From an uncultured Gammaproteobacteria bacterium (GTDB lineage Bacteria > Pseudomonadota > Gammaproteobacteria > DRLM01), in NCBI GenBank assembly GCA_963729605.1, contig CAVSNY010000007.1, forward strand, positions 352,001-416,000: a DNA stretch of 64,000 nt, read 5' to 3'. Position 1 is the first letter of the stretch; every line of letters starts with the position of its first letter. Position numbers and translations under genes: made by a program. Positions 30,295 to 60,625 of this stretch are shown here, piece by piece. The notes under the pieces were generated by a model. It was given only the letters and a program-made list of their open reading frames with translations. It searched no databases and was not told where the DNA came from.

Positions 30295-30396
30295 AGCAAG
30301 CGTAGTCCGAGTTGAGCGGGAGCGAACCCCGGGATTCGCGGCATCCTCACCCCAACCCCGTGTTTCGCAAACGGCGCTCAATCCAGGCTGCTTGCT
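30295..30396. repeat. REPIN-like inverted pair (GTAG type)
   Basis: AGCAAGCGTAGTCCGAGTTGAGCG ... CGCTCAATCCAGGCTGCTTGCT. Confidence 0.65.
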
Positions 30397-30462
30397 GTAA
30401 TGCTTGACCCGGATTTTCTCCCGCACCTGATCCAACAGCTTTGGCTTGACAGCGTTCTGCAT
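30394..30462 (-). pseudogene. intI: integron integrase 5' stub #1
   Basis: [23 protein letters not shown], matching the other two stubs and IntI N-termini. Confidence 0.8.
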
Positions 30463-30579
30463 GGAAGTGCACCCTCTTCAAAAAGAGTTGGGGCAATCCG
30501 CGCCCCGGCTCGTTTGACAGGTAATGACTTACAAAAAACGAAAGGATTAGACGCCAAATATGGCGCAATTTAAAGTACC

Positions 30580-30606
30580 AGATTGGGTGTCTACTTTGAG
30601 TTCGGC
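30580..30606 (+). other. attI-like site #1
   Basis: TGTCTAC-TTTGA-GTTCGGC, divergent from intI stub and immediately before a low-GC ORF. Confidence 0.7.
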
Positions 30607-30621
30607 CTTTAGGAGAAAACA

Positions 30622-31107
30622 ATGGATGAGCGTTGGATAACTTTACTTGAATACTGGCAAAATCATGAATTCGGCCATTCATTAACATTCCCTTTTATTA
30701 TAGGGGCGCTCCGACACCCAGTTGGTTCAAAGAACATTTCTGATATGTCGGCTCACGATGAGCTTAGAAAGCTAATTGACGCTATGAGATCTCATGTTGC
30801 TGATGGATATTACTACAACATTTATAGGTGTCCTGAACTTGGGCAGCTTGTTGTAAGAAAGGTCGTTAACTCAAGCCCGCCACATACTGCCATTGCCATA
30901 AAGCCAAAAGATTCTTCTGCAAATCCATCTCTCTTTGTATCTGATGGTTTGGAAAAAGGGTGCGCTTCTCCTTTTGATTCAATAGTAGAGCTTATTTGGA
31001 ATGAAGTAGGCTCTGCTATTGAAAATGGAAATTTTTCGTGTCACGGGAAAACATTCGGCGAGTTTAGCGAATATGACCTAAGGTTTATCAATAAGGGACT
31101 GGCCTAA
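30622..31107 (+). CDS. cassette hypothetical protein
   Basis: AGGAG RBS, low GC, stop codon lies in the attC R'' box. Confidence 0.75.
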   Translation: MDERWITLLEYWQNHEFGHSLTFPFIIGALRHPVGSKNISDMSAHDELRKLIDAMRSHVADGYYYNIYRCPELGQLVVRKVVNSSPPHTAIAIKPKDSSANPSLFVSDGLEKGCASPFDSIVELIWNEVGSAIENGNFSCHGKTFGEFSEYDLRFINKGLA

Positions 31108-31193
31108 AACGGCACTCGTTCGGACGCAAACTACGCTGCGCTGCGCTGCGCTGCGCTGCGCTTCGTTTGCGCCGCGCAGCTTGGTCTTTAGAG
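31102..31193 (+). other. degenerate attC site
   Basis: GCCTAAA-ACGGC-ACTCGTTC...GCGCAGC-TTGGTC-TTTAGAG with inner stem CGCAAAC/GTTTGCG. Confidence 0.7.
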
Positions 31194-31226
31194 CGTACGA
31201 GCCTCAATTGACAGGAGAGGAAACCG

Positions 31227-31871
31227 ATGGGTCTGTTTGGAAATATCACAAGTGCTTACAAGAAAAGCGAGGCGGCCGTTGTAGTTCAAAACCTTCTGGA
31301 ACATCAGGCACGCGTTGGTTTGCTCGATCTCGATCCAAAGGCTCTGGCTAATCGTCTAGTCAGCGTCCTCTGGGACCAGAAACCGGATCTCTTCGATGGA
31401 AAATTTGGGCAACGACCGCACAAGATCTCGGTAGCCGCCGCCGCACTTGCAGACGGAATTGGAAGGTTTGAGGCTCAAGACACCAATCGCGAAGCCCTGA
31501 TCCTCGCGCTGAGCAATGTGCTATCAGAAATCGAGACAAACGGGCGCCTTTATCCCTTTAACGGTATCGACGAAATATTGCTCGAGGCCGCTGGTGCAAT
31601 TTTTGTGGCAATGACGGAGGAACTCCGCGGACGATCTGGTAACACCACGCCGCCGTCGGCATACGCTACATTCGAAGATTGGTATGCCGAATTCAAGATT
31701 GGCGCTGGAAAAGCCAACCCTGCTCTGCGGGAAGCAGATGGTTCGAGCTTAATAGACTTCATGGATCACGAGCCGTTGCGGCGCGCATTTCGCGATCGCG
31801 TCGAACCGCGCTCCCTCGGCACGGAATTCGCGAAGTCTTTCGACATTCGCAAATTCGGCAAGCAAACGTAG
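31227..31871 (+). CDS. cassette hypothetical protein
   Basis: AGGAGAGG RBS after attC; TAG stop lies in a REP GTAG. Confidence 0.75.
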   Translation: MGLFGNITSAYKKSEAAVVVQNLLEHQARVGLLDLDPKALANRLVSVLWDQKPDLFDGKFGQRPHKISVAAAALADGIGRFEAQDTNREALILALSNVLSEIETNGRLYPFNGIDEILLEAAGAIFVAMTEELRGRSGNTTPPSAYATFEDWYAEFKIGAGKANPALREADGSSLIDFMDHEPLRRAFRDRVEPRSLGTEFAKSFDIRKFGKQT

Positions 31872-32088
31872 GGCGGAAGCCCAACGGGCGTTCCGCAGGA
31901 TGTTTGCCGCGGCTCAACACCCCCGCTCACCACCGATCATGTCCGCCGAAACATATCCGCCCCAATTAGCCGGATAAACGCCGCGTCTCACCCAGTAAGC
32001 GTAGGGCGCAATAGGCGGTAGCCGTATTGCGCCGAATGGTAGAAACATCCGGCGCAATGCCCTTCGGTTATTGCGCCCTACGCGGGCT
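31868..32088. repeat. GTAG REP (31868) and REPIN doublet (32001-32088)
   Basis: GTAGGGCGGAAGCCCAACGGGCGTTCCGC; GTAGGGCGCAATAG... ...TATTGCGCCCTACGCGGGCT. Confidence 0.85.
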
Positions 32089-32211: not shown

Positions 32212-32235
32212 GTCAACCAACAGCGAGGTAGATCT

Positions 32236-32628
32236 ATGAGCACCGTAACTGACTCTGATGTTTACAAGGCCGCCCTCGACCACTCGCGACAGTTGAGCGC
32301 TCTCCGTTTTGCGATCCTGACAGTCTTTATGACCGCAACCGGGGCATTATTCAACGCGTACTTCACTCCAACGGTGCATTACCCTCTTCGAGTCGTATCC
32401 TTTGCGGGCTTTTGGCTGGCCATCGTATTTCTCGTGTGTGAGATCGTTCTGTCATTTACCATGGCGAAGCAAAACAGCGTTGCGGAAGCGAAAGCAGGTG
32501 AAAAATACAAGGACGCGTTTCTTCACAGGCGTTGGCTCGCACTTTGGTCTATCCGGTTGGCTATCCCAAGCGTCTACGTGTTGAGTGGTGCGTATTGGTT
32601 TTATCTATTTTTTCTGTGGGTCGGTTAA
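32236..32628 (+). CDS. cassette small membrane protein (about 3 TM)
   Basis: GAGGT RBS; cassette start TTAGCGGTCAACC is complementary to its end GGTTAACCGCTAA. Confidence 0.75.
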   Translation: MSTVTDSDVYKAALDHSRQLSALRFAILTVFMTATGALFNAYFTPTVHYPLRVVSFAGFWLAIVFLVCEIVLSFTMAKQNSVAEAKAGEKYKDAFLHRRWLALWSIRLAIPSVYVLSGAYWFYLFFLWVG

Positions 32629-32668: not shown

Positions 32669-32712
32669 AGCCCGCGTAGGGCGCAATAACCGAAGGGCAT
32701 TGCGCCGGATGT
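32669..32712 (+). repeat. GTAG REP
   Basis: AGCCCGCGTAGGGCGCAATAACCGAAGGGCATTGCGCCG, same as 58016. Confidence 0.85.
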
Positions 32713-32914
32713 TAAGGCGATGACGCATCGCCTGCGAGTGAGCCTGATGATCCGTCTATGGTTGGGTATTAACTCGCCGGATATCGGCGGCTGCGAGTGA
32801 ACAAGGCAGGCCGATGGAGTGGTGCGTAATCCGAATCCATTTTCCGGATTACGCTTCGCCGCGCGCAGGGCGTCACTTCGCCCTGCGCGCATCTTTCATG
32901 TCCGCGCGGAGCGC

Positions 32915-48307: not shown

Positions 48308-48682
48308 TCATGGCGTGTTTCCAACGTAAAGAATAACGGCCAAACAGGCGCCGAGTGTAGCCACGATAATGTTCACGCCGAATCCCCACTTGGCGCCGTA
48401 GCCCGATGGGTATTCCGCCGGAGCGAGGGTTTTCAAAACGATCAGATACTGCCGGGACGAGTAGGCGGCGGCAAACGCCCCCAAGGCTATGAATGCCAAC
48501 CCCAGCCAGAACGTAGCACCGGCCGTGTTGGCCGCCGCACTATTCGGGGCGAGGGCCTCGATCAATATGCCGGTACGCTCCATCACAAAGCCGAAGGCAA
48601 TCAGCGCGAGGCTAGTCCTATTCCAGGCTAATAGCGTTCTTTCAGCCGCGAAGAGAACTCTTGGGTCATTTAAATCCGACAC
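48308..48682 (-). CDS. YidH/DUF202 membrane protein
   Basis: DPRVLFAAERTLLAWNRT. Confidence 0.85.
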   Translation of the reverse strand: MSDLNDPRVLFAAERTLLAWNRTSLALIAFGFVMERTGILIEALAPNSAAANTAGATFWLGLAFIALGAFAAAYSSRQYLIVLKTLAPAEYPSGYGAKWGFGVNIIVATLGACLAVILYVGNTP

Positions 48683-48749
48683 GGTCGCTCCTGGTGCTTA
48701 ATGAAAATATCCGGCAGAGACCCCTGGAACACCTTGTTGGGCGGCATGA

Positions 48750-49226
48750 TCACCGCCGCTCCTCGACGAATGCCGCGAGCTTCTCCAGCGCCATCCTGGT
48801 GCCGAGCTCGTTGTCGGCGGGTGACACGCCTGAAGGTAATCCTTCGTAGGTCATCGTGACTTCGGTGCCGCCGTCTTTGTCGGCCAGCGCAGTCGTAATA
48901 GTCATTTGGCCCTGCATGGCCGGATCGTTCGTCTCGAACTCGTCTACTTCCACAACATACTCGTTTGGCACCAGCTTGGCGAAATGGCCGTGGTACGTGT
49001 CGATATTGTCGATGGACTTTCCGGGTTGCGATGTGTCTTGGTAGGTCAGCGAGATCCGAAACCTGCCCCCTTCGCGCGCGTCGAAAGAGTGAACGCGGCA
49101 TGACATCCCGGTCGGCACTCTCCAGGCTGCTATGGCGTCCGGATCGAGAAGTGCGCGATAAATCTTCGCACGGGGCGCACGTATGTGCTTACTAATGCGC
49201 ATTCGCGTCATTTCCATCCCATGCAA
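48750..49226 (-). CDS. SRPBCC/AHSA1-family protein
   Basis: APRAKIYRALLDP...W, DAREGG, GGTEVT. Confidence 0.8.
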   Translation of the reverse strand: MHGMEMTRMRISKHIRAPRAKIYRALLDPDAIAAWRVPTGMSCRVHSFDAREGGRFRISLTYQDTSQPGKSIDNIDTYHGHFAKLVPNEYVVEVDEFETNDPAMQGQMTITTALADKDGGTEVTMTYEGLPSGVSPADNELGTRMALEKLAAFVEERR

Positions 49227-49265
49227 GGTCTGAGTTGGGCGTATTCAATCTCATGACCGATTCAA

Positions 49266-49817
49266 TCAATCCGCCGCTTCGGGTGCGCGGAACGCCTTGC
49301 TGTAGTAGCCGGATTGGTCGAAACAACAAACCCGACTCTTTCCGGAAGCAAGCATGTCACAAGCATCGCTGATCCGTTTTGCGCGGGTCTTGGCTTGCTT
49401 GGCTGAAGCAATCCAGTGAATCCAATCCAATCGTGCAATGGTCGTCGTGTTGTTCCAAATCCTACGCGCTTCAGGTGCAGCCGCCAAAGCGTCTTGAAGA
49501 TCCGGTGGAATCTCAGGTTCGGGTTCTTGCTCCACAGGCATGATCTCCAACGTGACGATGTCGCCGACCTGCACGCCTGCGGCTTCGCGTAGCTGTCGGT
49601 TTACCAGGAGCCAATGGCTCAATCGGCCATCCGGCTCGAGTGTCGCCTGGAAAGGGTGGCCGTTGATGGTGCCGCTTACAGTCGTCCGTCCTCGTCGCGG
49701 CAAGCTTGCGCTTGCATCCTTCGGCAGCACAACGAATGCCCACGAAGCATCACCGCCGGGCTTTGCCGGACGGAGCAGTTTTGTTTTGAAACGGGCCTTT
49801 TTATCGGCTTGGGTCAT
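49266..49817 (-). CDS. YdeI/OmpD-associated (DUF1905) protein
   Basis: GTINGHPF, PPDLQDAL, WIASAKQAKTRAKRI. Confidence 0.8.
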   Translation of the reverse strand: MTQADKKARFKTKLLRPAKPGGDASWAFVVLPKDASASLPRRGRTTVSGTINGHPFQATLEPDGRLSHWLLVNRQLREAAGVQVGDIVTLEIMPVEQEPEPEIPPDLQDALAAAPEARRIWNNTTTIARLDWIHWIASAKQAKTRAKRISDACDMLASGKSRVCCFDQSGYYSKAFRAPEAAD

Positions 49818-49824
49818 CTTAGAT

Positions 49825-50379
49825 TCACACGACGCCTTCCGGCAGATACCGGAGGATGACACAGCCGTTCGAAGTTGAGCGCGCTTCTTGCAGCTGAAGC
49901 TGCTGTGTCACTCCGTCACTAAACAGTAGTCTGCCCTTACCGTAAATGACCGGGGCGATCCCAATGCGGTACTCATCAAAAAGTTTCTCGTCCATGAGGC
50001 TCTTCGAAAGCTTGGCGCTGCCGAAGACGAACATATTCCCGTTACCTTCTCGCTTCAGTCTGGCGATTTCCGCCGCCACGTTGTCCTTCACGAGTGTCGT
50101 ACGGTTCCAGGCAGGCGCTTGAAGCGTGCGGGAACAGACCACCTTCGGAAGACTGTTCATGTAATCGGCGATCGCCCCCTGGGCGGTCTGCCAATAGGCG
50201 GCCATGCCCTCGTAGGTCACACGACCGAACACAAGCATGTCGGCCGATTTGAGCAGCTCGAGTGAAAATTGCTCAAGCTCCTCGCCCCAAAGCCGTTCGT
50301 GCCAGGGCAGGTCCCAGTTCTTCACGCCCTCGAAGTAACCATCGAGCGTGATTAGATTCCACATGATGAGTTTGCGCAT
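49825..50379 (-). CDS. dihydrofolate reductase/RibD C-terminal family protein
   Basis: TLDGY, FGRVTY, GSAKL, DEYRI, GKGRLLF. Confidence 0.85.
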   Translation of the reverse strand: MRKLIMWNLITLDGYFEGVKNWDLPWHERLWGEELEQFSLELLKSADMLVFGRVTYEGMAAYWQTAQGAIADYMNSLPKVVCSRTLQAPAWNRTTLVKDNVAAEIARLKREGNGNMFVFGSAKLSKSLMDEKLFDEYRIGIAPVIYGKGRLLFSDGVTQQLQLQEARSTSNGCVILRYLPEGVV

Positions 50380-50401
50380 CGCCCGCTCTCCTTTTCCTTT
50401 C

Positions 50402-50459
50402 GTCTAACGCCCGATAACTCGCACCGCGAAGCGGCGTCGGATTGAGCGATTTGCTCAGA
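50402..50459 (-). other. attC site (degenerate R'')
   Basis: minus strand TCTGAGC-AAATC-GCTCAATC...GTTAGAC. Confidence 0.65.
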
Positions 50460-50510
50460 AATTTCCCTGCTCTACTGCGGATCACGACGACTCGCATCCG
50501 ACAGCCGGCA

Positions 50511-50996
50511 TCAACCGCGACGCGCCGCCTCAATGGTCGCGATGTCGATCTTTGACATCTCCATCATCGCATCAAACGCACGCTTGGCGGCAGCAGGATC
50601 GGGGTCCGAGATCGCTTGCAGGAGCGCGATCGGCGTGATTTGCCAAGACAGTCCCCATTTGTCCTTGCACCAACCGCACGCGCTTTCCTGACCCCCGTTA
50701 CCCACGATCGCATTCCAGTAACGATCCGTTTCGGCTTGGTCGGTAGTTGCAACCTGAAACGAGAACGCTTCGCTGTGCTTGAATGCGGGGCCGCCGTTGA
50801 TCCCTACGCAGTGAACTCCCAAGACGGTGAACGAGACGGTCAGCACGTTCCCCTGTTTGCCCGACGGAAAATCGCCTGGGGCGCGGTACACCTCGCCGAC
50901 GGCCGAATCCGGAAAAGTCTTGGCGTAAAAATGCGCCGCTTCCTCAGCGTCGCGGTCATACCAAAGGCAGATCGTGTTTTTTGCGGGGTTAATCAT
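50511..50996 (-). CDS. VOC/PhnB-like protein
   Basis: NGGPAF, EAFSF, CGWCKDKWGLSWQ. Confidence 0.9.
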   Translation of the reverse strand: MINPAKNTICLWYDRDAEEAAHFYAKTFPDSAVGEVYRAPGDFPSGKQGNVLTVSFTVLGVHCVGINGGPAFKHSEAFSFQVATTDQAETDRYWNAIVGNGGQESACGWCKDKWGLSWQITPIALLQAISDPDPAAAKRAFDAMMEMSKIDIATIEAARRG

Positions 50997-51040
50997 GGCT
51001 ATCCTCCATTGAGTAAATCACCGGATACCGAGCCTTCCAT

Positions 51041-51102
51041 GCTGAACGGTGGAAGTAACCGGTGCCGGAGCGCAGTTTGTCCGGTTGACTGGCTAGTCCG
51101 AC
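51041..51102 (-). other. attC site
   Basis: minus strand GTCGGAC-TAGCC-AGTCAACC...GGTTACT-TCCACC-GTTCAGC. Confidence 0.7.
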
Positions 51103-51106
51103 GATT

Positions 51107-51580
51107 TCACTTGATTTCAATTCCTGCCATCCGAGCAAAAGCAACAAAATCAAGTGCCGTGTTCTGATCGTGGACGATACGCCACTGGCCTTCTTGCAAC
51201 TGAAAAACGTATGTCAGCCACGTGACGATGGGCGTGTCTTCGAGCTTGGGGCGATATTGGTATTTAATAAGCGCCATTGCCACATCTTCTCCTACTACCT
51301 TGTGAACAACCGAACCTTCCCATATCCAATTTGGGTCTTTGAACCATTGCCTGTGAAGGTCGATTGTTTCGGCCGGGGTAGTGAAAGCGTGCCCATTCTG
51401 AACGATTGTATAAAGAGTGTCGCCTTTGGTGAGATGCGACTTAAACGCCTCTATATCTCTATTGGAAATGGCTGCGAAGTGTTTTTGTAGAGCCGTATCG
51501 AAATCTGGTTTCACGGGCGAGTCTCCGCTATAAGCAACGGGTGTAAAAATGCAAAGAGTGACTACGGCAAATGACAACAT
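51107..51580 (-). CDS. secreted NTF2/SnoaL-like cassette protein
   Basis: Signal peptide, WRIVHDQ C-terminal strand; bounded by att cores. Confidence 0.75.
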   Translation of the reverse strand: MLSFAVVTLCIFTPVAYSGDSPVKPDFDTALQKHFAAISNRDIEAFKSHLTKGDTLYTIVQNGHAFTTPAETIDLHRQWFKDPNWIWEGSVVHKVVGEDVAMALIKYQYRPKLEDTPIVTWLTYVFQLQEGQWRIVHDQNTALDFVAFARMAGIEIK

Positions 51581-51685
51581 ATGTCGCGACGCCTAACGTT
51601 GGCCGTTAGGCGTCGCATCCATCATGACGACATAAATAGTAGTTTCGAAAATGCCGATCGCTACCGAAACACTGCCGCTCTTACT

Positions 51686-52111
51686 CTACTTATCCATCAC
51701 GACGTTCCATGGTCCATCCGCTTGGATGAAGAACACCGCGTCCTCGTTGCCTTCCACCTTCGCCGCGTGCGGCGCCTTGTTTGTCAGGGCGAAATACGAC
51801 CCAGGGCCTAGTTTGTGATCCTTGCCCTTGGCGGTAAGCGTGATCGTGCCCGACACCACCGTAACGTAATGATCCGCGTCGTGATGATGCTTCGGCGTCA
51901 CCAATCCGACGGGATACTTAAGAAAAAAGCGGCTCGCGCCCTTCTCCATGTTGCCCGAAACGGGAGCGGCCGTTATGCCGTTTCCCATGTCCTTCCATTT
52001 GAGGTCGGCCTTCGCGACCACTACCGCCGAGTCGGCGCCGGCGGTCAGCATCGGCGTTCCCGCCATCAGCGCCGCTGAAATCGAAAGGATTAGTGCGTGT
52101 TTGAATTTCAT
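51686..52111 (-). CDS. secreted cupin-domain protein
   Basis: HHH...VVSG, LGPGSY, PH. Confidence 0.8.
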   Translation of the reverse strand: MKFKHALILSISAALMAGTPMLTAGADSAVVVAKADLKWKDMGNGITAAPVSGNMEKGASRFFLKYPVGLVTPKHHHDADHYVTVVSGTITLTAKGKDHKLGPGSYFALTNKAPHAAKVEGNEDAVFFIQADGPWNVVMDK

Positions 52112-52263
52112 TTGCTCTCTCCTTGTGTCAAGGTAAGAAACTACGTCGGGAAGCAGCGAGGACAGCGTTTAAGCCTCGGAGCAGTAATTATAGCGATCCG
52201 CGTGAAAGCCAGCCGTTTGGCGCCCATCGTGGACTTCACCGGCCCGCCAAAGGCGAGTTCGGC

Positions 52264-52388
52264 GCAGCTCGGTAGGACGAATGCGTGCAACGCGATCCGT
52301 CGAATGTGAGGGCCGCGTGGTTGCATTCCTAATCTATCCTGCCAAAGCCATGCGGCGGAACGCCCTTTGGGCTTCCGCCCTACGAGCT
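52264..52388 (+). repeat. REPIN copy A (about 125 bp)
   Basis: GCAGCTCGGTAG...TTCCGCCCTACGAGCT; direct repeat of 54304-54426. Confidence 0.9.
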
Positions 52389-52389
52389 C

Positions 52390-53301
52390 TTAGAACGGGA
52401 CGTCGGGTTCCGTTGAGTTCTCCAAGTCAACCAAGTAGATGATCTGAGACGCGCAGACTGCCAGAATGTACTCGGTGACTTCCAGGGTTGCCTTTCCGCC
52501 GCTTGCTCCGCCGTGCCCGACTCCGTCGCCACCACTGCGAAAAGCATAGACACCAGTGAGTGTTTGGCAGATTGCTTTTGGTACCGCAACCTCACTTGTC
52601 GAGCCCAGCCACCGCACAAGATCTCCTAGCGTCGAAGCCTTCGCCACAGGGAAAAGCAGTTTGCCTGCGGCTTCGACAGCGCACACTGCCTCTTTCACTG
52701 CGTTCTCATAGTCAGGGCTCGATGGGTGACGAAAGAACTGAAGAGCCTTGTCGAAGTGCTTTCGGGCGCTCAGCAATCGGGAGTCACCGAGAACTACTTG
52801 TGACCTGGCAACTAGTTCAACTGTGTGCCTCCGCCCGCGCCTTCGAACCACTCCATCTGTGAACTCGTATGCGAGGCCTTCTTCAAGGAACAGCCTCTGA
52901 AGTTCGGCCGCGATGTATGACTGCATGTCTCCACGAGCGACCTGGACGTTGTAGTTGCCGTATTGATCTTCGTGCCCAAGCTCCTTGGGCAGATGGGCGT
53001 ACAGACGCTCGCAGAAGTCATAGACCTTCGCCCAGTCGATGCTTTCGAGCGCAGCTTCGGCGTCAGCTCTGGCCTGCTTAAGACTCGACAGCGATGATGG
53101 GTCATAGGTAGTGAGTGGTAGCCGACCGATGCGATTCAGCTCCCGCGCGGCCACTGTCCAGTCGGGCAAGTATCGACGGTCAACGAGGTCAAACAGCAGA
53201 TGTAGCAGGCCACTCCTCGCCGAGCGAGGAAAGTCGGCATCAATCTGCCGGTACCGCCCCTTAGTTCGAGCCGAGAACGGAGGTTGTGGTGGTGAGGTCA
53301 T
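52390..53301 (-). CDS. cassette protein, AbiJ-NTD4-like N-terminus + HEPN/Abi-C-like C-terminus
   Basis: FSAR...QIDADFP; HFDKAL...DYENAVKEAVCAVE...TLGD...RSGGDGVGH (family recalled from motif pattern). Confidence 0.6.
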   Translation of the reverse strand: MTSPPQPPFSARTKGRYRQIDADFPRSARSGLLHLLFDLVDRRYLPDWTVAARELNRIGRLPLTTYDPSSLSSLKQARADAEAALESIDWAKVYDFCERLYAHLPKELGHEDQYGNYNVQVARGDMQSYIAAELQRLFLEEGLAYEFTDGVVRRRGRRHTVELVARSQVVLGDSRLLSARKHFDKALQFFRHPSSPDYENAVKEAVCAVEAAGKLLFPVAKASTLGDLVRWLGSTSEVAVPKAICQTLTGVYAFRSGGDGVGHGGASGGKATLEVTEYILAVCASQIIYLVDLENSTEPDVPF

Positions 53302-53311
53302 AGGTTCTGCG

Positions 53312-53344
53312 GCCTAACGTTTCGAGTGAATGCGATTGTTATGC
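53312..53344 (-). other. collapsed 33-bp attC
   Basis: GCATAAC-AATCGCATTCACTCGAAAC-GTTAGGC. Confidence 0.75.
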
Positions 53345-53345
53345 G

Positions 53346-54086
53346 TCATTTGCTCACCTGTCGAAGCTTTTCGGCCAATTTTCTGACCATTACCTCGATG
53401 CCTTCGCCGTTCGGCAAGTACTTCAAAATGCGGTGGTGCGCCATATCAAACGGAACATCATCGAGTGACTGGGAAATCGGAATCACATGTTTGCCGAGAG
53501 TGTGGGCGATGCCAGTCTCGTACATCACGTTGGGGTTCTTTCCTGTGAAGTCTACTACTACCACGTGAGTCCTGAAGATCAGGTTGAAGATATCTTGAAT
53601 AACCGTGCTCTCTTCCCATATGTCGTCGACCCGAAGACACCGATATCCAGCCGCGCTGCAAGCGCGGCGAATTCCTTCATGCACCGTATTGAATGCTGCA
53701 TTGAATGGCATCATGACTGCCACCAAGTCGGTTTCGATAGCTGTGTTCTCAGGAACCTGAAAAACGTTTGGAGCGAAGGTAATCTTGCGCTCTGATGGTT
53801 TGGCGGAGATGAACTGGCTTTCTTCCGGGTATTTCTCTGCCACGTGTTTCTCAAAGATCGCGAAAGCTTTCTCGTCTTGCTCGGCAATGCGCTTAATTAT
53901 CGTGAGTGCGTTCCCTGCGTAGTCCTCGTCGCCCCAAGAGAGACTCCGCAAAAGGCGGGGGTGCCTTGAAATTAGCTCGGAATATCCAGTAAGAAGACCA
54001 ACTTCTTCCCAGTCTCCGGCGTCAAAATCCGCGACCACACGTTCCCGTAATGCGAGGATTCTTTTCCCAAGATCGTAACCTACCAT
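53346..54086 (-). CDS. cassette protein, AbiJ-NTD-like N-terminus + nucleoside deoxyribosyltransferase/TIR-like domain
   Basis: HPRLLRSLSWGDEDY; VMMPF...RVDD...DFTGKNPNVMYETGIAH...PFD. Confidence 0.7.
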   Translation of the reverse strand: MVGYDLGKRILALRERVVADFDAGDWEEVGLLTGYSELISRHPRLLRSLSWGDEDYAGNALTIIKRIAEQDEKAFAIFEKHVAEKYPEESQFISAKPSERKITFAPNVFQVPENTAIETDLVAVMMPFNAAFNTVHEGIRRACSAAGYRCLRVDDIWEESTVIQDIFNLIFRTHVVVVDFTGKNPNVMYETGIAHTLGKHVIPISQSLDDVPFDMAHHRILKYLPNGEGIEVMVRKLAEKLRQVSK

Positions 54087-54104
54087 TGCGTTGACCTATT
54101 TAGC

Positions 54105-54135
54105 GCATAGCTTAAAGTAGACATCCTAATTGACG
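54105..54135 (-). other. attI-like site #2
   Basis: TGTCTAC-TTTAA-GCTATGC; about 190 bp near-identical to 60062-60253. Confidence 0.75.
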
Positions 54136-54233
54136 CCTTATAAAGCGTCATCACGTGTTCTAAATCTTTTCCCATGGTAAAAGTGTCCTGTACTATCAGC
54201 AAGAAAATAAAATTTAGGGTGTGCTAATTAGAA

Positions 54234-54308
54234 ATGGCTAATACGGCAGATCATCCACCCAAGCTGCTCGATCAGGTGCGGGCGAAGATTCGCCTTAAGC
54301 ATTGCAGC
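54234..54308 (+). pseudogene. intI: integron integrase 5' stub #2
   Basis: [23 protein letters not shown] then REPIN sequence. Confidence 0.85.
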
Positions 54309-54426
54309 TCGGTAGGGCGGATGCGTGCAGCACGATCCGCCGGATGTGAGCGCCGCGGCTGCATTCCTAACCTATCCTGCCAAAGCCATGCGGCGGAACG
54401 CCCTTTGGGCTTCCGCCCTACGATCT
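54304..54426 (+). repeat. REPIN copy B
   Basis: GCAGCTCGGTAGGGCGGATGCG...TTCCGCCCTACGATCT. Confidence 0.9.
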
Positions 54427-54429
54427 ACA

Positions 54430-54498
54430 GCCTCAAGCGCCGATGAGCTGTGCCGAAGCGCGCAGCGCGGAGGCGTCCGCTCTATTGGCTGGTTAAGC
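54430..54498 (-). other. attC site (degenerate R')
   Basis: minus strand GCTTAAC-CAGCC-AATAGAGC...GCTCATC...TTGAGGC; R'' contains the NYN stop. Confidence 0.7.
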
Positions 54499-55287
54499 AT
54501 CTGCTCGGGCCCGGACGTACAGTACCTTATGGTTGGATCCCGGTGCTGCGCGCTCTTCTGTGAGAAACAGATCTGGGCGCCCTTTCACTAGATCGGACAA
54601 TTTTTTATAGCCGTAAAGCCTTGAGTCGAAGTCTGGCTGAATCTTTTGCAGGTAGCTACCAAATGTTGCAAGGTGCGACCATCCGGTGTCGTCTACCGAT
54701 TTATCCAGGGCCTCCATTAGGAATTCTCGTGGGAATTCTGTCTGTACTTCCGGTGCTGGCTTCTGCGTTTCGACTCGCGCTTCTTCTTGCTTTTTGACCT
54801 TGCCGGAAGATTTCTTTACTTCGACTTTGGTTGTCGTTTGCAGCACTTCAGTGAATACGAACTTGTGGCACGCATTCCGAAATGCTTCCGGTGTCTTCCT
54901 TTCTCCGAATCCGTACACCAGAAGCCCTTCTTCGCGAAGCCTTACCGCGAGTCCTGTGAAATCACTGTCACTCGTTACAAGACAGAACCCGTCAAATCGC
55001 CGGGTGTATAAAAGGTCCATTGCGTCGATGATCATCGTACTATCGGTCGCGTTCTTGCCGGTTGTATATGCGAACTGCTGGACCGGCTTTATGGAATGCT
55101 TGTTTAGGCATTTCTTCCAAGACGCGCTGGTAGGCACGGTGAAGTCGCCGTAGATTCTTTTAACAGTGGCTTCGCCGAATCGAGCTACCTCCTCAAGGAG
55201 GGCTTCGATCACTGCCGCCTGTGCGTTGTCGGCATCGATTAACACAGCAAGGCGCTTCAGAGTCACGTCGGATTGCTGGTGTTCCAT
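54493..55287 (-). CDS. NYN-domain protein with OST-HTH/LOTUS C-terminus (cassette)
   Basis: LIDADN, KRIYGD, GKNATD, SDSDF, FDSRLYGYKKLSDL. Confidence 0.9.
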   Translation of the reverse strand: MEHQQSDVTLKRLAVLIDADNAQAAVIEALLEEVARFGEATVKRIYGDFTVPTSASWKKCLNKHSIKPVQQFAYTTGKNATDSTMIIDAMDLLYTRRFDGFCLVTSDSDFTGLAVRLREEGLLVYGFGERKTPEAFRNACHKFVFTEVLQTTTKVEVKKSSGKVKKQEEARVETQKPAPEVQTEFPREFLMEALDKSVDDTGWSHLATFGSYLQKIQPDFDSRLYGYKKLSDLVKGRPDLFLTEERAAPGSNHKVLYVRARADA

Positions 55288-55480
55288 ACGCGTTTTCCTC
55301 TAATTCAGATGCCTAACGTAAAGTTAAAAAGCGATAAATAAGGCTGCCCCCGTTTTGTGCCGAGTATTGAAACAAATCCCATCCGGCGCAATACGCACTA
55401 CGCACGCTGGCTAAGAGTTGCCTCATCCGTCGTCGCGGAAGGGGGGGCGGGCCTCTGCACCGTTTCCGTCAAACGCCATA

Positions 55481-56551
55481 TTACGGCGTCAGCGCGAGGA
55501 ACAAGAAGGCCGCGAAGATCACCAAATGAACGGCGCCCTGCATCATGTTGGTCCGGCCGGTGCCCAGCGCGATTGCGCCGACCACGAAGCTCAGCGTCAG
55601 CAGCACGATATCCTTCGGCTCGAGGCCGAGCAGCAGCGGCATATCGAACCACACGGAGACGGTCACCACCACCGGGATGGTGAGTCCGATGCTCGCCAGC
55701 GCGGAGCCCAGCGCGAGATTGAGGCTGGTCTGCAGGCGGTTGGCCAGCGCCGCCCGCACCGCGGCCCAGCTCTCGGGCATCAGGACGATCATGGCGATGA
55801 CGATGCCGATCACCGTCTGCGGCGCGCCAGCCGCCGACACCACCGCCTCGATGCTCGGCGACAGCGCCTTGGCAAGGCCCACCACGCTGACCAGCGATAC
55901 CACGAGCAGCGCGAAGCTCCCCCAGCTTTTCGCGAGCGAAGGCGGGGGCGCGTGCGCCTCCTCGTTCGAACGATCGGCCGCCGGCAGGAAGAAGTCGCGA
56001 TGCCGCACCGTCTGGAAGAAGATGAACACGCACCACAGCACCAGCGAAGAACAGGCCACGAACGCGAGCTGTGACGTCGAGTAGCTGCCGCCCGGTGTGC
56101 TGGTGGTGAACACCGGCATCACCAGCGACAGCGTGGCCAGTGCCACCAGGGCCGCGAACGCGGGCCCCGTGCCCTCGATGCGGAACGACTGCTGGTGATG
56201 ACGCAGCCCGCCGAGCAGCAGACAGATGCCGACCACGCCGTTGCAGATGATCATGATGGTCGCGAAGATGGTGTCGCGCGCGAGCGGTGCTTTCTCCGGC
56301 CCGCCGGCCAGCATGATCGACACGATGAGCGCGACCTCGATCACGGAGATGGCGAGGGCGAGCACCAGCGTGCCGAAAGGCTCGCCCACGCGATGGGCCA
56401 CGACCTCGGCGTGATGCACCGCGGCGATGACGGCGGCGACGAGCGCCGCGGCCGCGGCGGCGGTGAGGAGGGTGTCCATGGGCAGCCAGAGCGTCATCGC
56501 CAGCAGGGCCGCGGCGACAGGCGGAACGGCGTAGGGCCAGAATTTCATCAT
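55481..56551 (-). CDS. Ca2+/H+ antiporter (ChaA/CaCA family)
   Basis: HAEVVAHRVGEPFGTLVL, LMPE, NLALGS. Confidence 0.85.
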   Translation of the reverse strand: MMKFWPYAVPPVAAALLAMTLWLPMDTLLTAAAAAALVAAVIAAVHHAEVVAHRVGEPFGTLVLALAISVIEVALIVSIMLAGGPEKAPLARDTIFATIMIICNGVVGICLLLGGLRHHQQSFRIEGTGPAFAALVALATLSLVMPVFTTSTPGGSYSTSQLAFVACSSLVLWCVFIFFQTVRHRDFFLPAADRSNEEAHAPPPSLAKSWGSFALLVVSLVSVVGLAKALSPSIEAVVSAAGAPQTVIGIVIAMIVLMPESWAAVRAALANRLQTSLNLALGSALASIGLTIPVVVTVSVWFDMPLLLGLEPKDIVLLTLSFVVGAIALGTGRTNMMQGAVHLVIFAAFLFLALTP

Positions 56552-56764
56552 TGACCGGCTTTCGGTGCTAAAAGGCCAAGCCGGGCTCGCGGCCCGGCGG
56601 AGTTGATACGAGTACGGCGCAGAGACATGGTTGGTAACGTTATTGTTGGTGATGCCGGTAATAGTTGTATCACACTTGGCGGCGTCGATGCCGGGCAATG
56701 CGCAATGAGCGGCATCTTCCTCAGGCGGTCTTGCCGTGGCGAGCCTCGTTTGCCGCGGCCGGCG

Positions 56765-57241
56765 CTACGGTTTCGGTGTGTCGACGATGTCCACCACCAG
56801 CGCGCGCACCTTGGCCCCGCTGGTATTCTCCCACCAATGGGTGACGCCGGTCTTCTCGAATGCGACATCGCCGACTACGCGCGTGATCGGACTGGCAGCG
56901 TCGTTGCGGTGCTCGACGATCTCGCCCTCCAGGATATAGGCGGCGCCGGGTCGGGCGTCGTGCTGATGCACGGCGATGACGCCGCCCGGCAATATCGTGA
57001 TCTCCCGCACCCGCAGCTCTTTGCCCTCCATCCCGGCGAATTCGGATGCGAGCGCCACGCCGCCGAGGCGGACGACCGAGGCGATGCCGGTGTTCTGCGT
57101 GGGGCCTTGCGCCGCCTGCTCTTGCGCTATCGCCCTTTCCCCTGCGGGGACCACGCCTTTGTCCTCGTGGGCGTACGCCGTACCGCACGCCAAGCAGAGG
57201 CTCAGCGATAAGAGCATCCTGAAACCGTTATCGAACGCCAT
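56765..57241 (-). CDS. secreted cupin-domain protein
   Basis: PGG...HQH...YILEG, HWWEN. Confidence 0.8.
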   Translation of the reverse strand: MAFDNGFRMLLSLSLCLACGTAYAHEDKGVVPAGERAIAQEQAAQGPTQNTGIASVVRLGGVALASEFAGMEGKELRVREITILPGGVIAVHQHDARPGAAYILEGEIVEHRNDAASPITRVVGDVAFEKTGVTHWWENTSGAKVRALVVDIVDTPKP

Positions 57242-57355
57242 GAATATTTCCTTGCTTAAAGTCCATTATTGGCCGCGCATCACCGCCCCCCCGATCCACT
57301 TCACGCTGGGGGCGTCCTGCCCAGACCCGATGGTTCGCCTTCTGACACAAAAATT

Positions 57356-57514
57356 GGGACAGATTTATTTTATGCCCAGTCAATCACAAACTCTACGCAT
57401 TTGGCGCAGCTTTTCGCGGGCCTATCGGATCCGCGCTTTTCAATCCGCCTTCTACTATTTCCTCCACCTTGCCTACGAAAGATACTCTTCCAAAGAGACG
57501 AATAAATCTGTCCC
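57356..57514. mobile_element. MITE-like element copy 1
   Basis: 14-bp TIR GGGACAGATTTATT/AATAAATCTGTCCC. Confidence 0.7.
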
Positions 57515-57551
57515 CCATTTTGCTCTGGCCCACTGTCGCGATTTAATGCTG

Positions 57552-57785
57552 CTACTTCCGTGTTGGCATTGCCTCCTGGGCTCCCTGGTACCAAGTCCGC
57601 ACCAGAGCAAGAAGCGCCGAACCAGTAACCATGCCCAGGAAGTAGACGCCGAAGAGGAGTATAGAGAGGGGCAATGTTAGCGACGCGGTAGCGAAGTTTA
57701 CGGTAACGCTTTCGATGTTTTGAACCTTAAACATCGCGACCACCAGCGTAACCCCAAGAATTAACGCAAGATATAAGTAACGCAT
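57552..57785 (-). CDS. LapA/DUF1049-family small membrane protein
   Basis: AGGAG RBS; QN...V.V.F...LPL...G pattern, two TMs. Confidence 0.75.
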   Translation of the reverse strand: MRYLYLALILGVTLVVAMFKVQNIESVTVNFATASLTLPLSILLFGVYFLGMVTGSALLALVRTWYQGAQEAMPTRK

Positions 57786-57815
57786 TTCGAAGATCTCCTT
57801 CTCTATACAAAAATT

Positions 57816-57983
57816 GGGACACACAAAAATTAGGGGGGCCTCAGATTTATTTTATTCTATCGTCAATCACAAACTACTACGCATTTGGCGCAGCCTTTTG
57901 CGGCCTGCCGGGTGCGCGCTTCCTACTATCTTCCACCTTGCCCACGAAAGATGCTCCTTCAAAGAGATAAATAAATCTGTCCC
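57816..57983. mobile_element. MITE-like element copy 2
   Basis: Diverged direct repeat of 57356-57514; right TIR intact, left TIR rearranged. Confidence 0.65.
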
Positions 57984-58015
57984 GGGTTTTTTCGCGGCTG
58001 CATGGCGCGCGTCCG

Positions 58016-58189
58016 AGCCCGCGTAGGGCGCAATAACCGAAGGGCATTGCGCCGAATGTTAATCGTCTACACCATACTGCCCTCTTCACCGCCAGCTCAA
58101 TCGAGCGGATACACGCCTTATGGCATCAGTGTATCGTGACAATCGACATCCTGCGCAATGCCCTTCGGTTATTGCGCCCTACGCGGGCT
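58016..58189. repeat. REPIN doublet
   Basis: Inverted AGCCCGCGTAGGGCGCAATAACCGAAGGGCATTGCGC units. Confidence 0.9.
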
Positions 58190-58946
58190 ATCGCTCCTCA
58201 TTTATCGAATTTGATATGGAACTTAAACTGAGAGCATTGTTTTTGCGTTGAGCTACTGCGACAAGGAATAGGAAAGTCACTGCTACGCCCACAAGCGCTG
58301 CAGGAATACTTTTAGAGGCAGCGCTCATAGCCGATGCCGATGGGCCCGACATTATCAAGGCCGTGACGAAGGCGATTAACCATGCAAAAAGAAATCCCGC
58401 AAATTGTGCGCCCCGCGTGATATTGAATCGTTTCACGAAGAGCAAGGCAACCAAATAAAAAATTAGCGTGGCAGGAAGTAATTCGGCAGCCAGCATCACC
58501 GCGGCCATATAGTTAATCCGCGTGGCGGGTTGTGGATTAACATTGCTAGGCGGTTCTGGGGAGGTATTAACAAGTAACTTTGTTTCGGCGTCGAACGAAG
58601 CTCGCATGGCTTTTTGTTCGCCAAGAGGGACGCAGGGCGCAATGAAGTCTTCAAAGTACTTATTGCGGAGAATCTCCTTTTGTTCGGTGGACAATGCTTG
58701 CACGGTGGGCAATCTAACTACGCCTTCCCAGTTGTCGGGAAAGTCAGTTGCTGTTTTGGCTCGTAGTCCTTCTTTGCATTGCATATAGGCGGCGTGTGCT
58801 TCTAACGTTCTGAATTTGAATTGCTCGCCATATGCCATGTCCGGAGTCACGAAAGCAACTGTCCAAATAATGGCAACAGCAATCTTGACGACATCCACAG
58901 AAGATGAGTCGATCCATCGACGCCTTTGGTTGTATATCTGATTCAT
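58188..58946 (-). CDS. cassette hypothetical membrane protein
   Basis: GGAGG RBS just after attC; low GC; several TMs. Confidence 0.7.
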   Translation of the reverse strand: MNQIYNQRRRWIDSSSVDVVKIAVAIIWTVAFVTPDMAYGEQFKFRTLEAHAAYMQCKEGLRAKTATDFPDNWEGVVRLPTVQALSTEQKEILRNKYFEDFIAPCVPLGEQKAMRASFDAETKLLVNTSPEPPSNVNPQPATRINYMAAVMLAAELLPATLIFYLVALLFVKRFNITRGAQFAGFLFAWLIAFVTALIMSGPSASAMSAASKSIPAALVGVAVTFLFLVAVAQRKNNALSLSSISNSINEER

Positions 58947-58961
58947 GGTAGCCTCCAAAAC

Positions 58962-59033
58962 CCCTAATGACAAAGCTCACCTGCCGCGCAGGAGCGCAGC
59001 GACGGAGAGGTCAGGTGAAGTGCCGTATTAGGC
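58962..59033 (-). other. attC site with AAT/ATT cores
   Basis: minus strand GCCTAAT-ACGGC-ACTTCACC...GGTGAGC-TTTGTC-ATTAGGG. Confidence 0.8.
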
Positions 59034-59903
59034 TTAGAATTCAGCTTCTGACAACCCAAACGTTTGCATGTTGCCATTTTGCACCTTATATAAAGTCATC
59101 GTGATATTGCTGTATTGAACACCGTCGTGTGTCTGTATTTCTTCAAGAGCAAATGCTTCCGAGCGTGCGAGTCCACCATTGTTCAAATCTCGATAGCGAA
59201 TGTCATAGTTTCCCGCAGCAACCTTGTTCAAGGTAAAACTATCAAATGCAGGGATGTAAAATTGGCGGACTGGATAAGCCTCAGCACTGCCCAACGATAC
59301 TAGCTTCACAAATACGTCAGAATCATTACGGCTGTTATCTATCTTTACTGTCGAGAGACCATCCGCGTGAAGTTTTTTATAGCCTTTGATATAGCCAGCA
59401 GATGTAGGCCAAGGCTGCCCATTTGGCGCTGTATATGGCCTTACGTATTCTTGTCGAACTGGTGCTGGCTCTGCATTGTAAGGTTTTGGGCCGGGTGGTG
59501 GCAGACTTGGATTGTCGGTTGCCCAGACCCATAAAAAGAAAACAGCTATTCCATATAGAGCCCAGTATCTGAAAATGTGAGCAAGGATTCCCCCAGTATT
59601 TTTTGGAAGAGGTGGTTGAGTCGGCGTGGTCTGTGGCGCTGGGCCTGATTTTCTATTGGTGTTATCCGTTTGAGCTCCACCTAACTCTTGTTGCGCTATC
59701 CATTGATCATGCTCCTTGCGTTTACCTGGGTCTGACAGCGCCTCATATGAGGCATTTATTATTGCCATAATACGAGCTGCTTCTGCGTTGCCTTGGTTTT
59801 TATCAGGGTGATACTTCTGAGATAACGTTTTGTATGCGGCGCGAATGACCTCAATTGGGGCGTTACGCGCGACTTTAAGATTGTCATAATGTGTGCGAAT
59901 CAT
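59034..59903 (-). CDS. J-domain membrane protein (cassette)
   Basis: THYDNL...AY...YHPD...YEALSDP, one TM, beta-rich C-terminal domain. Confidence 0.85.
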   Translation of the reverse strand: MIRTHYDNLKVARNAPIEVIRAAYKTLSQKYHPDKNQGNAEAARIMAIINASYEALSDPGKRKEHDQWIAQQELGGAQTDNTNRKSGPAPQTTPTQPPLPKNTGGILAHIFRYWALYGIAVFFLWVWATDNPSLPPPGPKPYNAEPAPVRQEYVRPYTAPNGQPWPTSAGYIKGYKKLHADGLSTVKIDNSRNDSDVFVKLVSLGSAEAYPVRQFYIPAFDSFTLNKVAAGNYDIRYRDLNNGGLARSEAFALEEIQTHDGVQYSNITMTLYKVQNGNMQTFGLSEAEF

Positions 59904-60046
59904 TCGACTGCCAGTTGCGTGTTGATAGTGTGTTCGTGCCCGCTCTTTTTCTTTCTCACTTGATGCGCAAAAAAATAAATACCACAATCACATCTCATTG
60001 CTGACGGTGAATTTATCAAACCGCAATGTGGGCACACTATGCTCAT
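59900..60046 (-). CDS. 48-aa zinc-ribbon peptide or frameshifted N-terminus of the J protein
   Basis: MSIVCPHCG...CDCG; its TGA overlaps the ATG of the J-domain ORF. Confidence 0.5.
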   Translation of the reverse strand: MSIVCPHCGLINSPSAMRCDCGIYFFAHQVRKKKSGHEHTINTQLAVE

Positions 60047-60056
60047 TTCTTGTCAA

Positions 60057-60085
60057 GCCTAACTTAAAGTAGACATCCTAATTAA
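60057..60085 (-). other. attI-like site #3
   Basis: TGTCTAC-TTTAA-GTTAGGC; the first cassette ends with the complementary AAGCCTAA. Confidence 0.8.
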
Positions 60086-60185
60086 CGCCTTATAAGGCGT
60101 CATCACGTGTTCTGAATTTTTCCCCATGGTAAAAGTATCCTTTAGTCTCAGCAAGAGAATAAAATTTAGGGCGCCCTAATTAGAA

Positions 60186-60470
60186 ACGTCTAATACGGCA
60201 GATCATCCACCAAGCTGCTCGATCAGGTGCGGGCGAAGATTCGACTCAAGCACTACAGTATTCGCACGGAGCAGGCCTATGTGGATTAAATCAGGCGGTA
60301 CATTTTGTTTCACGGCAAGCGCCATCCTAATCTTATGGGTGGCGCCGAAGCGGTTGCCGGTGGTTTTGACGCGGGAGGAGGTGCACGCGGTGCTCTCGCG
60401 CCTCACCAGCGTTTACTGGTTGATGGGCAGCCTTCTGTCCGGAGCCGGACTGGGGTTGATGGAATACGTG
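60186..60470 (+). pseudogene. intI: integron integrase pseudogene (stub #3)
   Basis: [38 protein letters not shown]...PKRLPVVLTREEV...GAGLGLME. Confidence 0.9.
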
Positions 60471-60625
60471 TTCAAGCTATTTATCCCCTCAGCCCCCCCT
60501 CTCCCTGGGGGAGAGGGGTAAGCGATCGACGGGCGGCCCCGATCGGTAACTTCTACTTTCTCGGTGGCTGCTCCGAGGCTATCATTGCGGCCTTGGATTC
60601 CACTGTTAATCGAAGAGCAATTCCC

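What the first reader, a model, noticed from the sequence alone, without database searches (positions are those of the whole stretch)
30295..60518. REP-bracketed integron fragments: repeated [REPIN - intI stub - attI - cassettes - REP] modules
Seen: three IntI 5' stubs (30462-, 54234+, 60186+), each divergent from the same TGTCTAC-N5-G(T/C)T core followed by low-GC cassettes. Stubs #1 and #2 both break at the same point (KHYS / KH-CS, at an AGC), each into a different GTAG-type REPIN. Stub #3 ends about 25 bp before a CCCTCTCCC hairpin. Each cassette run also ends in a REP (31868, 32669, 52388, 58189). Established: GTAG REPs/REPINs are processed as ssDNA hairpins by HUH-family RAYT (TnpA-REP) enzymes, and integron attC sites also recombine as ssDNA hairpins. 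Inference: REP/RAYT activity may cut, copy and re-seed integrase-less attI+promoter+cassette units around the chromosome, giving satellite landing pads usable by an integrase in trans. I know of no description of this as a system. No RAYT or intact intI is present in the window.
Basis: partly seen in the sequence, partly recalled or inferred. Interest (0 to 1): 0.85.

Follow-up and report, generated by a model that had tools for sequence, protein, structure and literature searches.

The report
Scattered integrase-less integron landing pads
This bacterium has lost its integron integrase yet keeps about twenty integron insertion sites around its chromosome, which related species fill with different gene cassettes, and small repeats left by hairpin-cutting transposases mark many of the breaks that made the extra copies.

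Summary
The three intI stubs, attI cores, low-GC cassettes and REPINs are real. The genome (94% complete) has no intact intI but 20 attI-like sites of five types at 12 loci. In 6 of 6 clear comparisons with congeners, the same integrase-less site carries a different first cassette, and likeness stops at the G|TT crossover: the sites were reloaded in trans. GTAG REPs and a mini-element derived from a Y1 (TIRYT) transposase are strongly enriched in these arrays, follow the cassette strand, and REP flanks mostly end at C|T, the RAYT cut site. A RAYT remnant lies in the window; two intact-looking RAYT genes lie elsewhere. The tidy 'REP-bracketed module' does not hold in general: only 1 of 11 outer platforms has a GTAG REP at its border; 8 of 9 internal copies abut a repeat, six of them the TIRYT element; stub 3 is a decayed home integron; another family has stub copies without REPs. 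Best reading: IntI reloads the pads, HUH-derived repeats set the fusion points that create internal attI copies resembling published delta-attI cassettes. The scan noted similar arrangements before, here (rdgB) and in another genome. New variant; interest 0.6.

The parts
28801..30267 (-). ubiD, host gene at the left border of the first satellite
   Evidence: Pfam UbiD; orthologous site empty in G001, G004, G008
30296..30394 (.). REPIN of the 'R4' GTAG family at the break of stub 1
   Evidence: sequence; same element and break in G003; family also flanks an intact-looking RAYT on contig C3
30395..30462 (-). intI 5' stub 1 (type B platform)
   Evidence: translation and tblastn to intact IntI
30588..30602 (+). 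attI simple site, type B; crossover G|TT at 30600/30601
   Evidence: likeness to G003 ends exactly here and a different cassette follows
30622..31107 (+). cassette ORF, no family found
31102..31193 (+). attC site
   Evidence: two-arm profile with stem check, score 39 against control maximum 27; this site was one of the seeds
31227..31871 (+). cassette ORF whose stop codon lies in the REP
31868..31894 (+). R1 REP arm; 3' REP of a former RAYT locus (REPtron)
   Evidence: shared with G002 and G003, each with other DNA flush against it
31914..31994 (-). last 27 codons of a RAYT gene, cut off at the next REPIN
   Evidence: orthologous longer RAYT remnants in G002 and G003 hit RAYT at E 8e-43 and 5e-10; window piece E 0.002
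32001..32088 (.). R2 REPIN
32236..32628 (+). cassette ORF after an attC-like hairpin (about 32150-32215, read by eye)
32669..32713 (+). R2 REP arm, right end of the first satellite
48300..60075 (-). decaying home cassette array, interrupted by REPINs, TIRYT mini-elements and an internal attI
   Evidence: cassette-type ORFs (DUF202, AHSA1, DUF1905, RibD_C, SnoaL, cupins, AbiJ, NYN, DnaJ) and attC arms
52264..52388 (.). R1 REPIN, direct repeat of 54304-54426
   Evidence: families D2 and D9, 87-90% alike
52390..53301 (-). cassette ORF, AbiJ_NTD4; PADLOC PDC-S32 match
53346..54086 (-). cassette ORF, AbiJ_NTD5 with a TIR-like part
54109..54123 (-). internal attI, type A (core GCT in place of GTT)
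54174..54202 (-). possible Pc promoter (TTGCTG-17-TACCAT), read by eye
   Evidence: not called by the consensus scan; inference only
54234..54308 (+). intI 5' stub 2
54304..54426 (.). R1 REPIN joined to stub 2 at a C|T, next to a degenerate attC (54437-54498)
57350..57520 (-). TIRYT-derived mini-element (inverted ends GGGACAGATTTATTT, inner piece of a Y1 transposase 3' end)
57810..57992 (-). second TIRYT-derived mini-element
58016..58189 (.). R2 REPIN inside the home array
   Evidence: inverted repeat I1
58962..59033 (-). attC site
59034..59903 (-). first cassette of the home array, DnaJ-domain ORF
60061..60075 (-). home attI, type A
60186..60470 (+). decayed home intI: lost start codon, frameshift, internal stop, inner and 3' deletions
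   Evidence: TIGR02249 positions 1-45 and 94-135
60487..60521 (.). generic CCCTCTCCC hairpin
   Evidence: 71 such elements in the genome
60626..61873 (+). lysA, host gene beside the home integron
   Evidence: TIGR01048; G001 has an intact intI at the same place

Best explanation
A scattered, integrase-less integron system in two layers. Layer 1: short attI-plus-promoter platforms sit at fixed chromosomal addresses, mostly just behind the 3' end of a host gene, and persist for long times without a local intI; an integrase encoded elsewhere in the cell or arriving by gene transfer loads cassettes into them by ordinary attI x attC recombination. Layer 2: non-autonomous pieces of HUH (Y1) transposases, GTAG REPINs of RAYT and a mini-element of TIRYT, have colonised the arrays. 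Cutting and rejoining at their ends (C|T for REPINs), or recombination between their copies, fuses an array segment to the 5' end of an intI gene or to its promoter region. The product is an internal attI with promoter standing where an attC should be, like a delta-attI cassette, which IntI at the attI end and the repeat at the other end can move on. Shown: the sites, the crossover-exact cassette exchange, the enrichment, orientation and junction pattern. Inferred: in-trans catalysis, promoter activity, which enzyme made each junction, how outer platforms first arrived.
For: No TIGR02249 match over cut-off in G000; intact genes in G001 and G002. 20 attI-like sites at 12 loci. Same integrase-less platform, different first cassette, likeness ending at the crossover in 6 of 6 clear comparisons at 5 loci: ubiD (G003), C2 start (G003), addB-like (G001), atpC (G001, G003), rdgB (G002, about 83% identical DNA). 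8 of 11 outer platforms lie 68-562 bases behind a co-oriented host gene. 8 of 9 internal copies abut a REPIN (2) or the TIRYT element (6; one of them also cut by a REPIN) at scattered distances from attI. The same attI-stub-mini-element junction has different cassettes on both sides in two G000 copies and in L126; run X4 adds junctions at 54205 and 54271. Repeats follow the cassette strand on both replichores: 8 of 8 and 4 of 4 R1 arms. 34 of 57 REP flanks part from their nearest sister right after CT or one base later, background 24%; TnpA-REP cuts at C|T (PMC8266576, passages). Delta-attI cassettes with up to 238 bases of attI region are excised and inserted by IntI1 (PMC12901181, abstract, passages and most of the Discussion).
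Against: G000 has six assembly gaps, so an intact intI could be missing from the assembly. The upstream ORF does not travel with the internal attI in the three copies that share a junction, so a simple delta-attI cassette is not the whole story. No intact TIRYT was found in G000. The promoter was not called by the consensus scan. PMC12901181 reports that a cassette between two full attI1 sites is excised at once, which would make internal full attI copies unstable whenever IntI is present.
Confidence: 0.55

Rival explanations
1. RAYT cuts out and re-inserts whole REPIN-bracketed units (REPIN, intI stub, attI, cassettes, REP) as single-stranded DNA and so seeds new landing pads.
For: Module 2 lies between direct-repeat R1 REPINs. 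Stubs 1 and 2 break at the same C|T, one of 10 such sites in the first 155 bases. At ubiD, atpC, addB-like and C5 the variable segment ends 5-8 bases before a GTAG; at C5 G000 has 3.8 kb more than G003, ending at a REPIN end. Two satellites adjoin RAYT genes or remnants. Two RAYT genes pass the NCBIfam cut-off.
Against: 1 of 11 outer platforms has a GTAG REP at its border. Module 1 is bracketed by two different REP families. The copy at C7:328k carries the last codons of the addB-like gene and no REP. In one copy the REPIN cut into an older TIRYT end. G023 has four stub copies without these repeats. No REP-like hairpin in intI at the break. [quoted passage not shown]
Confidence: 0.2
2. Passive decay: several complete integrons each lost intI; repeats later landed in dispensable DNA; junctions and duplications come from RecA or microhomology recombination between repeats, with no role for HUH catalysis or for in-trans loading.
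For: Stub 3 is a decaying gene at a site where G001 has an intact integron. Most attC sites are degenerate. Junctions show 3-5 bases of microhomology. G085 and G023 show stubs without REPs. Integrase loss is common in Xanthomonas (10.1101/2025.06.18.660453, passages).
Against: The integrase-less state is shared across species at rdgB, atpC and the addB-like gene while first cassettes differ at G|TT. Generic repeats avoid the arrays (0 of 176) while HUH-derived ones pile up there. Strand bias and C|T ends.
Confidence: 0.22
3. The copies are assembly artefacts of a metagenome-assembled genome.
For: G000 is in 7 contigs and repeats end some relatives' contigs.
Against: Type A copies are 72-95% identical with different junctions; orthologous sites occur in G001, G002, G003; contigs of run X4 show the same kind of junctions.
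Confidence: 0.02

Closest known systems
CALIN / SALIN (Cury et al. 2016, PMC4889954, passages; Loot et al. preprint 10.1101/2022.09.11.507474, passages)
   Same: attC arrays without an integrase nearby, expected to be usable by an integrase in trans; conserved extra loci as in Xanthomonas (10.1101/2025.06.18.660453, passages).
   Different: CALINs are defined by attC only. Here each array keeps an attI and promoter region, many arrays hold several, and cassette exchange at the attI crossover is seen between species.
Delta-attI-type gene cassettes (PMC12901181, abstract, passages, Discussion part 1 of 2)
   Same: A piece of the attI region stands inside an array where an attC should be and can serve IntI.
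   Different: Described in class 1 and 2 mobile integrons, mostly 11 bases long, origin unknown. Here the pieces are 50-200 bases with promoter and sometimes intI stub, chromosomal, and joined through HUH-derived repeats.
REP/REPIN-RAYT (REPtron) systems (PMC8266576, PMC6006769, PMC3733652; passages)
   Same: GTAG-footed hairpins, REPINs, RAYT genes flanked by their REPs, C|T junctions.
   Different: Low copy numbers, piled up in integron arrays and bound to the cassette strand; in the passages read, integrons appear only as an analogy (PMC8266576) or not at all (0 occurrences in the other two).
TIRYT / TIRtron (Di Nocera et al. 2013, PMC3733652, passages)
   Same: Y1 transposase between terminal inverted repeats with GGGGWSAS; full-length relatives carry GGGGACAGATTTATTT ends.
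   Different: G000 holds only inner-deletion derivatives, all in cassette arrays, many joined to attI platforms.
MITE- or IMU-flanked class 1 integrons (review PMC3575428, passages)
   Same: Non-autonomous repeats bracket a defective integron and can move it when a transposase is given in trans.
   Different: Those are identical 288-439-base elements with target duplications, moved by a DDE-type transposase (recalled); here ends are mixed, no duplication was seen, and the elements are HUH-derived.

Membership tests
Complete integron | Intact intI beside attI | tested here: not met
   0 TIGR02249 matches over cut-off in G000
Complete integron | attI simple site with crossover at G|TT | tested here: met
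   6 of 6 clear cross-species comparisons break there
Complete integron | Active Pc promoter | tested here: inconclusive
   Seen by eye, not called by the scan; no RNA holder listed
CALIN | Two or more attC sites, no intI nearby | tested here: met
   Own profile scan, not IntegronFinder: two sites above the control maximum at C5, atpC, rdgB, C7:1032k, C7:1211k; fewer at other loci
Delta-attI-type cassette | attI-region piece replaces the attC behind an ORF | tested here: inconclusive
   Fits C7:327.4k, L126 and L072 (broken attC, repeat, attI); in window module 2 a degenerate attC is still there
Delta-attI-type cassette | Excised and inserted by IntI | not testable with these tools
   needs a recombination assay
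REPtron / RAYT | RAYT gene flanked by GTAG REPs | tested here: met
   C7:5-565 and C3:193.9k pass NF047646 (203 and 181 bits, cut-off 80) with REPs on both sides; remnant in the window
REPtron / RAYT | Junctions at C|T near the REP | tested here: met
   34 of 57 flanks, copies not independent
REP-bracketed composite element | Same-family repeats at both ends of each unit | tested here: not met
   True for module 2 only among the three window modules; 1 of 11 outer platforms has a GTAG REP border
TIRtron | Y1 transposase between GGGGWSAS inverted repeats | tested here: inconclusive
   Met for relatives (inverted pair around the gene in 7 of 12 loci); G000 has only deletion derivatives matching P0001 at 54-88%
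IMU / MITE-flanked integron | Identical MITEs at both ends and a target duplication | tested here: not met
   Mixed ends; no duplication seen by eye around 52264-54426

The most novel reading that the evidence does not exclude
HUH transposases (RAYT and TIRYT) and integron integrase form one working system: the HUH enzymes cut at array hairpins and at intI, building attI-plus-promoter units that IntI spreads, so that a lineage keeps a standing archipelago of expression-ready landing pads behind housekeeping genes and needs integrase only now and then, from another locus or another cell. This would also give an origin for delta-attI cassettes.
Probability: 0.3. Interest if true: 0.82.

Novelty: new variant of a known kind. 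Interest (0 to 1): 0.6.

Why it matters
Integron surveys find arrays by attC and cannot see unknown attI sites, so integrase-less arrays are usually read as relics. Here many keep their attI and show crossover-exact cassette exchange between species, which makes the long-standing guess that such arrays are used in trans directly testable, with named sites and a congener's intact integrase. The repeat-defined junctions offer a testable origin for internal attI copies, stated as unknown in PMC12901181, and a concrete job for REP- and TIR-associated transposases, whose role is open.

Tried and rejected
Cryptic REP inside intI at the shared break: the His-Tyr codons give GTAG on the cassette strand, but folding shows no stable hairpin (z 0.74, -1.32 and 0.20 for stubs 3, 2, 1); rejected. 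TIRYT tied to integrons everywhere: none of 12 full-length loci showed attC or intI within 1.5 kb in my scan; an earlier query found another TIRYT group with other ends; G258 was not scored in either. Orientation set by replication: arrays lie on both strands; rejected. First attC finder too strict; MAFFT alignment of attC unusable, so no covariance model was built; IntegronFinder was not available. Mini-element not found in plasmids or P0001 in viral contigs. No RNA holder listed. The C3 site differs from G003 also upstream of attI, and the C7:328k site ends G003's contig; both were left out of the 6 of 6 count. A profile hit at C7:300258 (18.9, control maximum 18.0) was not counted; the atpC seed scored only 18.1 and is counted because G001 and G003 confirm it. 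Paper searches with no hit. No supplements were read; they may bear on the TIRYT and delta-attI comparisons.
Full report
1. The observation. The window is G000:C7:352001-416000 of a 3.48-Mb genome in 7 contigs, 94% complete. The three stubs translate to IntI N-termini, each facing away from a TGTCTAC-N5-G(T/C)T core, with GC 0.46-0.54 behind it against 0.61 overall. Stubs 1 and 2 end at the same homologous base and run into REPINs of two families. Three details need correcting. The REPs at 52388 and 58189 interrupt one long array (about 48300-60061) and do not end it. The hairpin after stub 3 belongs to a generic family of 71 elements. And 31914-31994(-) is the tail of a RAYT gene: G002 and G003 keep longer pieces at the same place.

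2. The genome. TIGR02249 finds no intact intI in G000, only stub 3 and two other tyrosine recombinases; congeners G001 and G002 have intact genes. Stub 3 lies before lysA, where G001 has an intact integron, so it is a decayed home integron. Alignment, a profile scan with reversed and complemented controls, and comparison with relatives gave 20 attI-like sites of five types at 12 loci: A x8, B x1, C x7, D x3, E x1; the D sites came from earlier finding e1-6822094 and were checked. Eleven are outer platforms heading an array; 8 of these 11 lie 68-562 bases behind the 3' end of a co-oriented host gene such as atpC, rdgB, an addB-like gene, an ABC ATPase or a helicase. Nine are internal. Type A copies are 72-95% identical with different junctions. 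Two RAYT genes pass the NCBIfam cut-off and several remnants exist.

3. The pads were reloaded. Where a congener has the same integrase-less platform, its first cassette differs and likeness stops at or within three bases after G|TT: ubiD and the C2 site in G003, the addB-like site in G001, atpC in G001 and G003, rdgB in G002 (6 of 6). Two further shared sites were left out as unclear. At rdgB, atpC and the addB-like gene no intI remains in any of the compared genomes, so loss came before the exchange; an integrase acting in trans is the simplest reading (inference). The ubiD site is empty in G001, G004 and G008; the C7:1032k site is empty in G002. Contigs of four public runs read TGG where stub 3 has TAA, and run X4 has loose ends that read like the missing middle of IntI and other cassettes behind the home attI, so the type A integrase is less decayed in related populations.

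4. The repeats. Besides GTAG REPs there is a 60-170-base element with inverted ends GGGACAGATTTATTT. Its inside matches the C-terminus of a Y1 transposase (P0001, PF01797, 88% over 26 residues), and full-length relatives have these ends in 7 of 12 loci: a TIRYT derivative in the sense of PMC3733652 (passages). In zones fixed by attI position (3.6% of non-native DNA) lie 8 of 14 R1, 4 of 11 R2, 6 of 13 R4, 1 of 4 R5, 0 of 6 R6 and 7 of 9 mini-elements, but 0 of 176 generic repeats; 9 of 12 low-GC islands with attI hold such a repeat against 8 of 98 others. R1 arms follow the cassette strand (8 of 8 and 4 of 4) on both replichores. Variable segments often end 5-8 bases before a GTAG. Of 77 distinct REP flanks, 20 were dropped as too short or as duplicates; 34 of the other 57 part from their nearest sister right after CT (14) or one base later (20), background 24%; copies are related, so this is a pattern, not a probability. 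TnpA-REP cuts at C|T (PMC8266576, passages), and both stub breaks are at C|T on the cassette strand.

5. Against the bracket model. Only 1 of 11 outer platforms has a GTAG REP at its upstream border; 8 of 9 internal copies abut a repeat, six the TIRYT element and two a REPIN alone, at distances of about 30-200 bases from attI. The platform at C7:328k carries the last codons of the addB-like gene, so it was copied from C7:1213k without a REP. One attI-stub-mini-element junction recurs in two G000 copies and in L126 with different cassettes on both sides, and in one copy a REPIN has cut into the mini-element later. X4 adds junctions at 54205 and 54271. REPINs also truncate RAYT, another gene and attC sites. 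G023, of another family, has four stub copies without these repeats. A hidden REP in intI was not supported, and the shared break was not found in a narrow search of 401 genomes.

6. How it most likely works (0.55). Integrase-less attI-promoter platforms are long-lived landing pads loaded in trans. HUH-derived repeats colonise the arrays; cut-and-join at their ends or recombination between copies fuses array DNA to intI 5' ends or promoter regions, giving internal attI copies that IntI and the repeats can spread. Rivals: RAYT moves whole bracketed modules (0.2), passive decay with ordinary recombination (0.22), artefact (0.02). How outer platforms first arrived is open.

7. Known and new. CALINs and their possible use in trans are described (PMC4889954; 10.1101/2025.06.18.660453; 10.1101/2022.09.11.507474; passages). 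Internal attI pieces that IntI can move are described for mobile integrons, origin unknown (PMC12901181). MITE- and IMU-flanked integrons are described (PMC3575428, passages). I found no paper joining REP/RAYT or TIRYT to attI copies or describing many integrase-less attI per chromosome: searches gave none; one search gave two, one read in passages (analogy only) and one seen as a listing; the two TIRYT papers have no 'integron' in their main text. The library lacks most subscription papers. This scan noted similar arrangements in other genomes (e1-7662813, e1-3119182; unchecked). Verdict: a real feature and a new variant of known kinds; interest 0.6; boldest reading 0.3 likely, 0.82 if true.

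Noticed in passing
window 60186-60470 and L026 (G001:C50): G000 and G001 both have an integron just upstream of lysA, but the integrases are only about 55% identical over 51 residues and the attI types differ, while lysA is about 90% identical; G002, G004 and G008 have none there. Replacement or two arrivals at one address.
   Followed up: partly
L072 (G003:C68) and G000 C7:1-760, C2:1-560: In G003 an intact RAYT gene lies at the far end of the attI array whose orthologue starts contig C2; G000's RAYT starts contig C7, so C2 and C7 are probably joined through this array.
   Followed up: partly
L132:7800-16600 and L133:10850-11280 (G023): Four intI 5' stubs, three in tandem within one cassette array, in a complete genome of another family, without the repeats seen in G000.
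   Followed up: partly
L137:9750-9969 (G001:C108): A near-identical copy of the 5' part of G001's intact intI beside ligA, ending about 100 bases from a CCCTCTC hairpin.
   Followed up: no
L062:2341-4900 (G000 C7:1120-1123k): Broken RAYT gene, partly duplicated, with R2 REPs between Rhs-like C-terminal and immunity-like ORFs (family names recalled, not scanned).
   Followed up: no
window 52390-54086: The two cassettes of module 2 match AbiJ N-terminal domains and PADLOC models (PDC-S32; a TIR effector model), so possible anti-phage cargo.
   Followed up: partly
genome-wide, for example window 42010-42140: An abundant element of about 160 bases with inverted ends (40 elements by a strict motif, up to about 70 self-matches) avoids the arrays; not identified.
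   Followed up: no
L052 (G000 C5:230160-230175, 232655-232670) and L126:590-606: Twelve bases at the stub junction look like an inverted copy of the next intI bases and also like the end of the R1 REPIN.
   Followed up: no
G000 C7:612495-614366: A CRISPR-like repeat array seen in the self-comparison.
   Followed up: no
window 31133-31165: The loop of an attC holds a (GCTGC)n microsatellite expansion.
   Followed up: no
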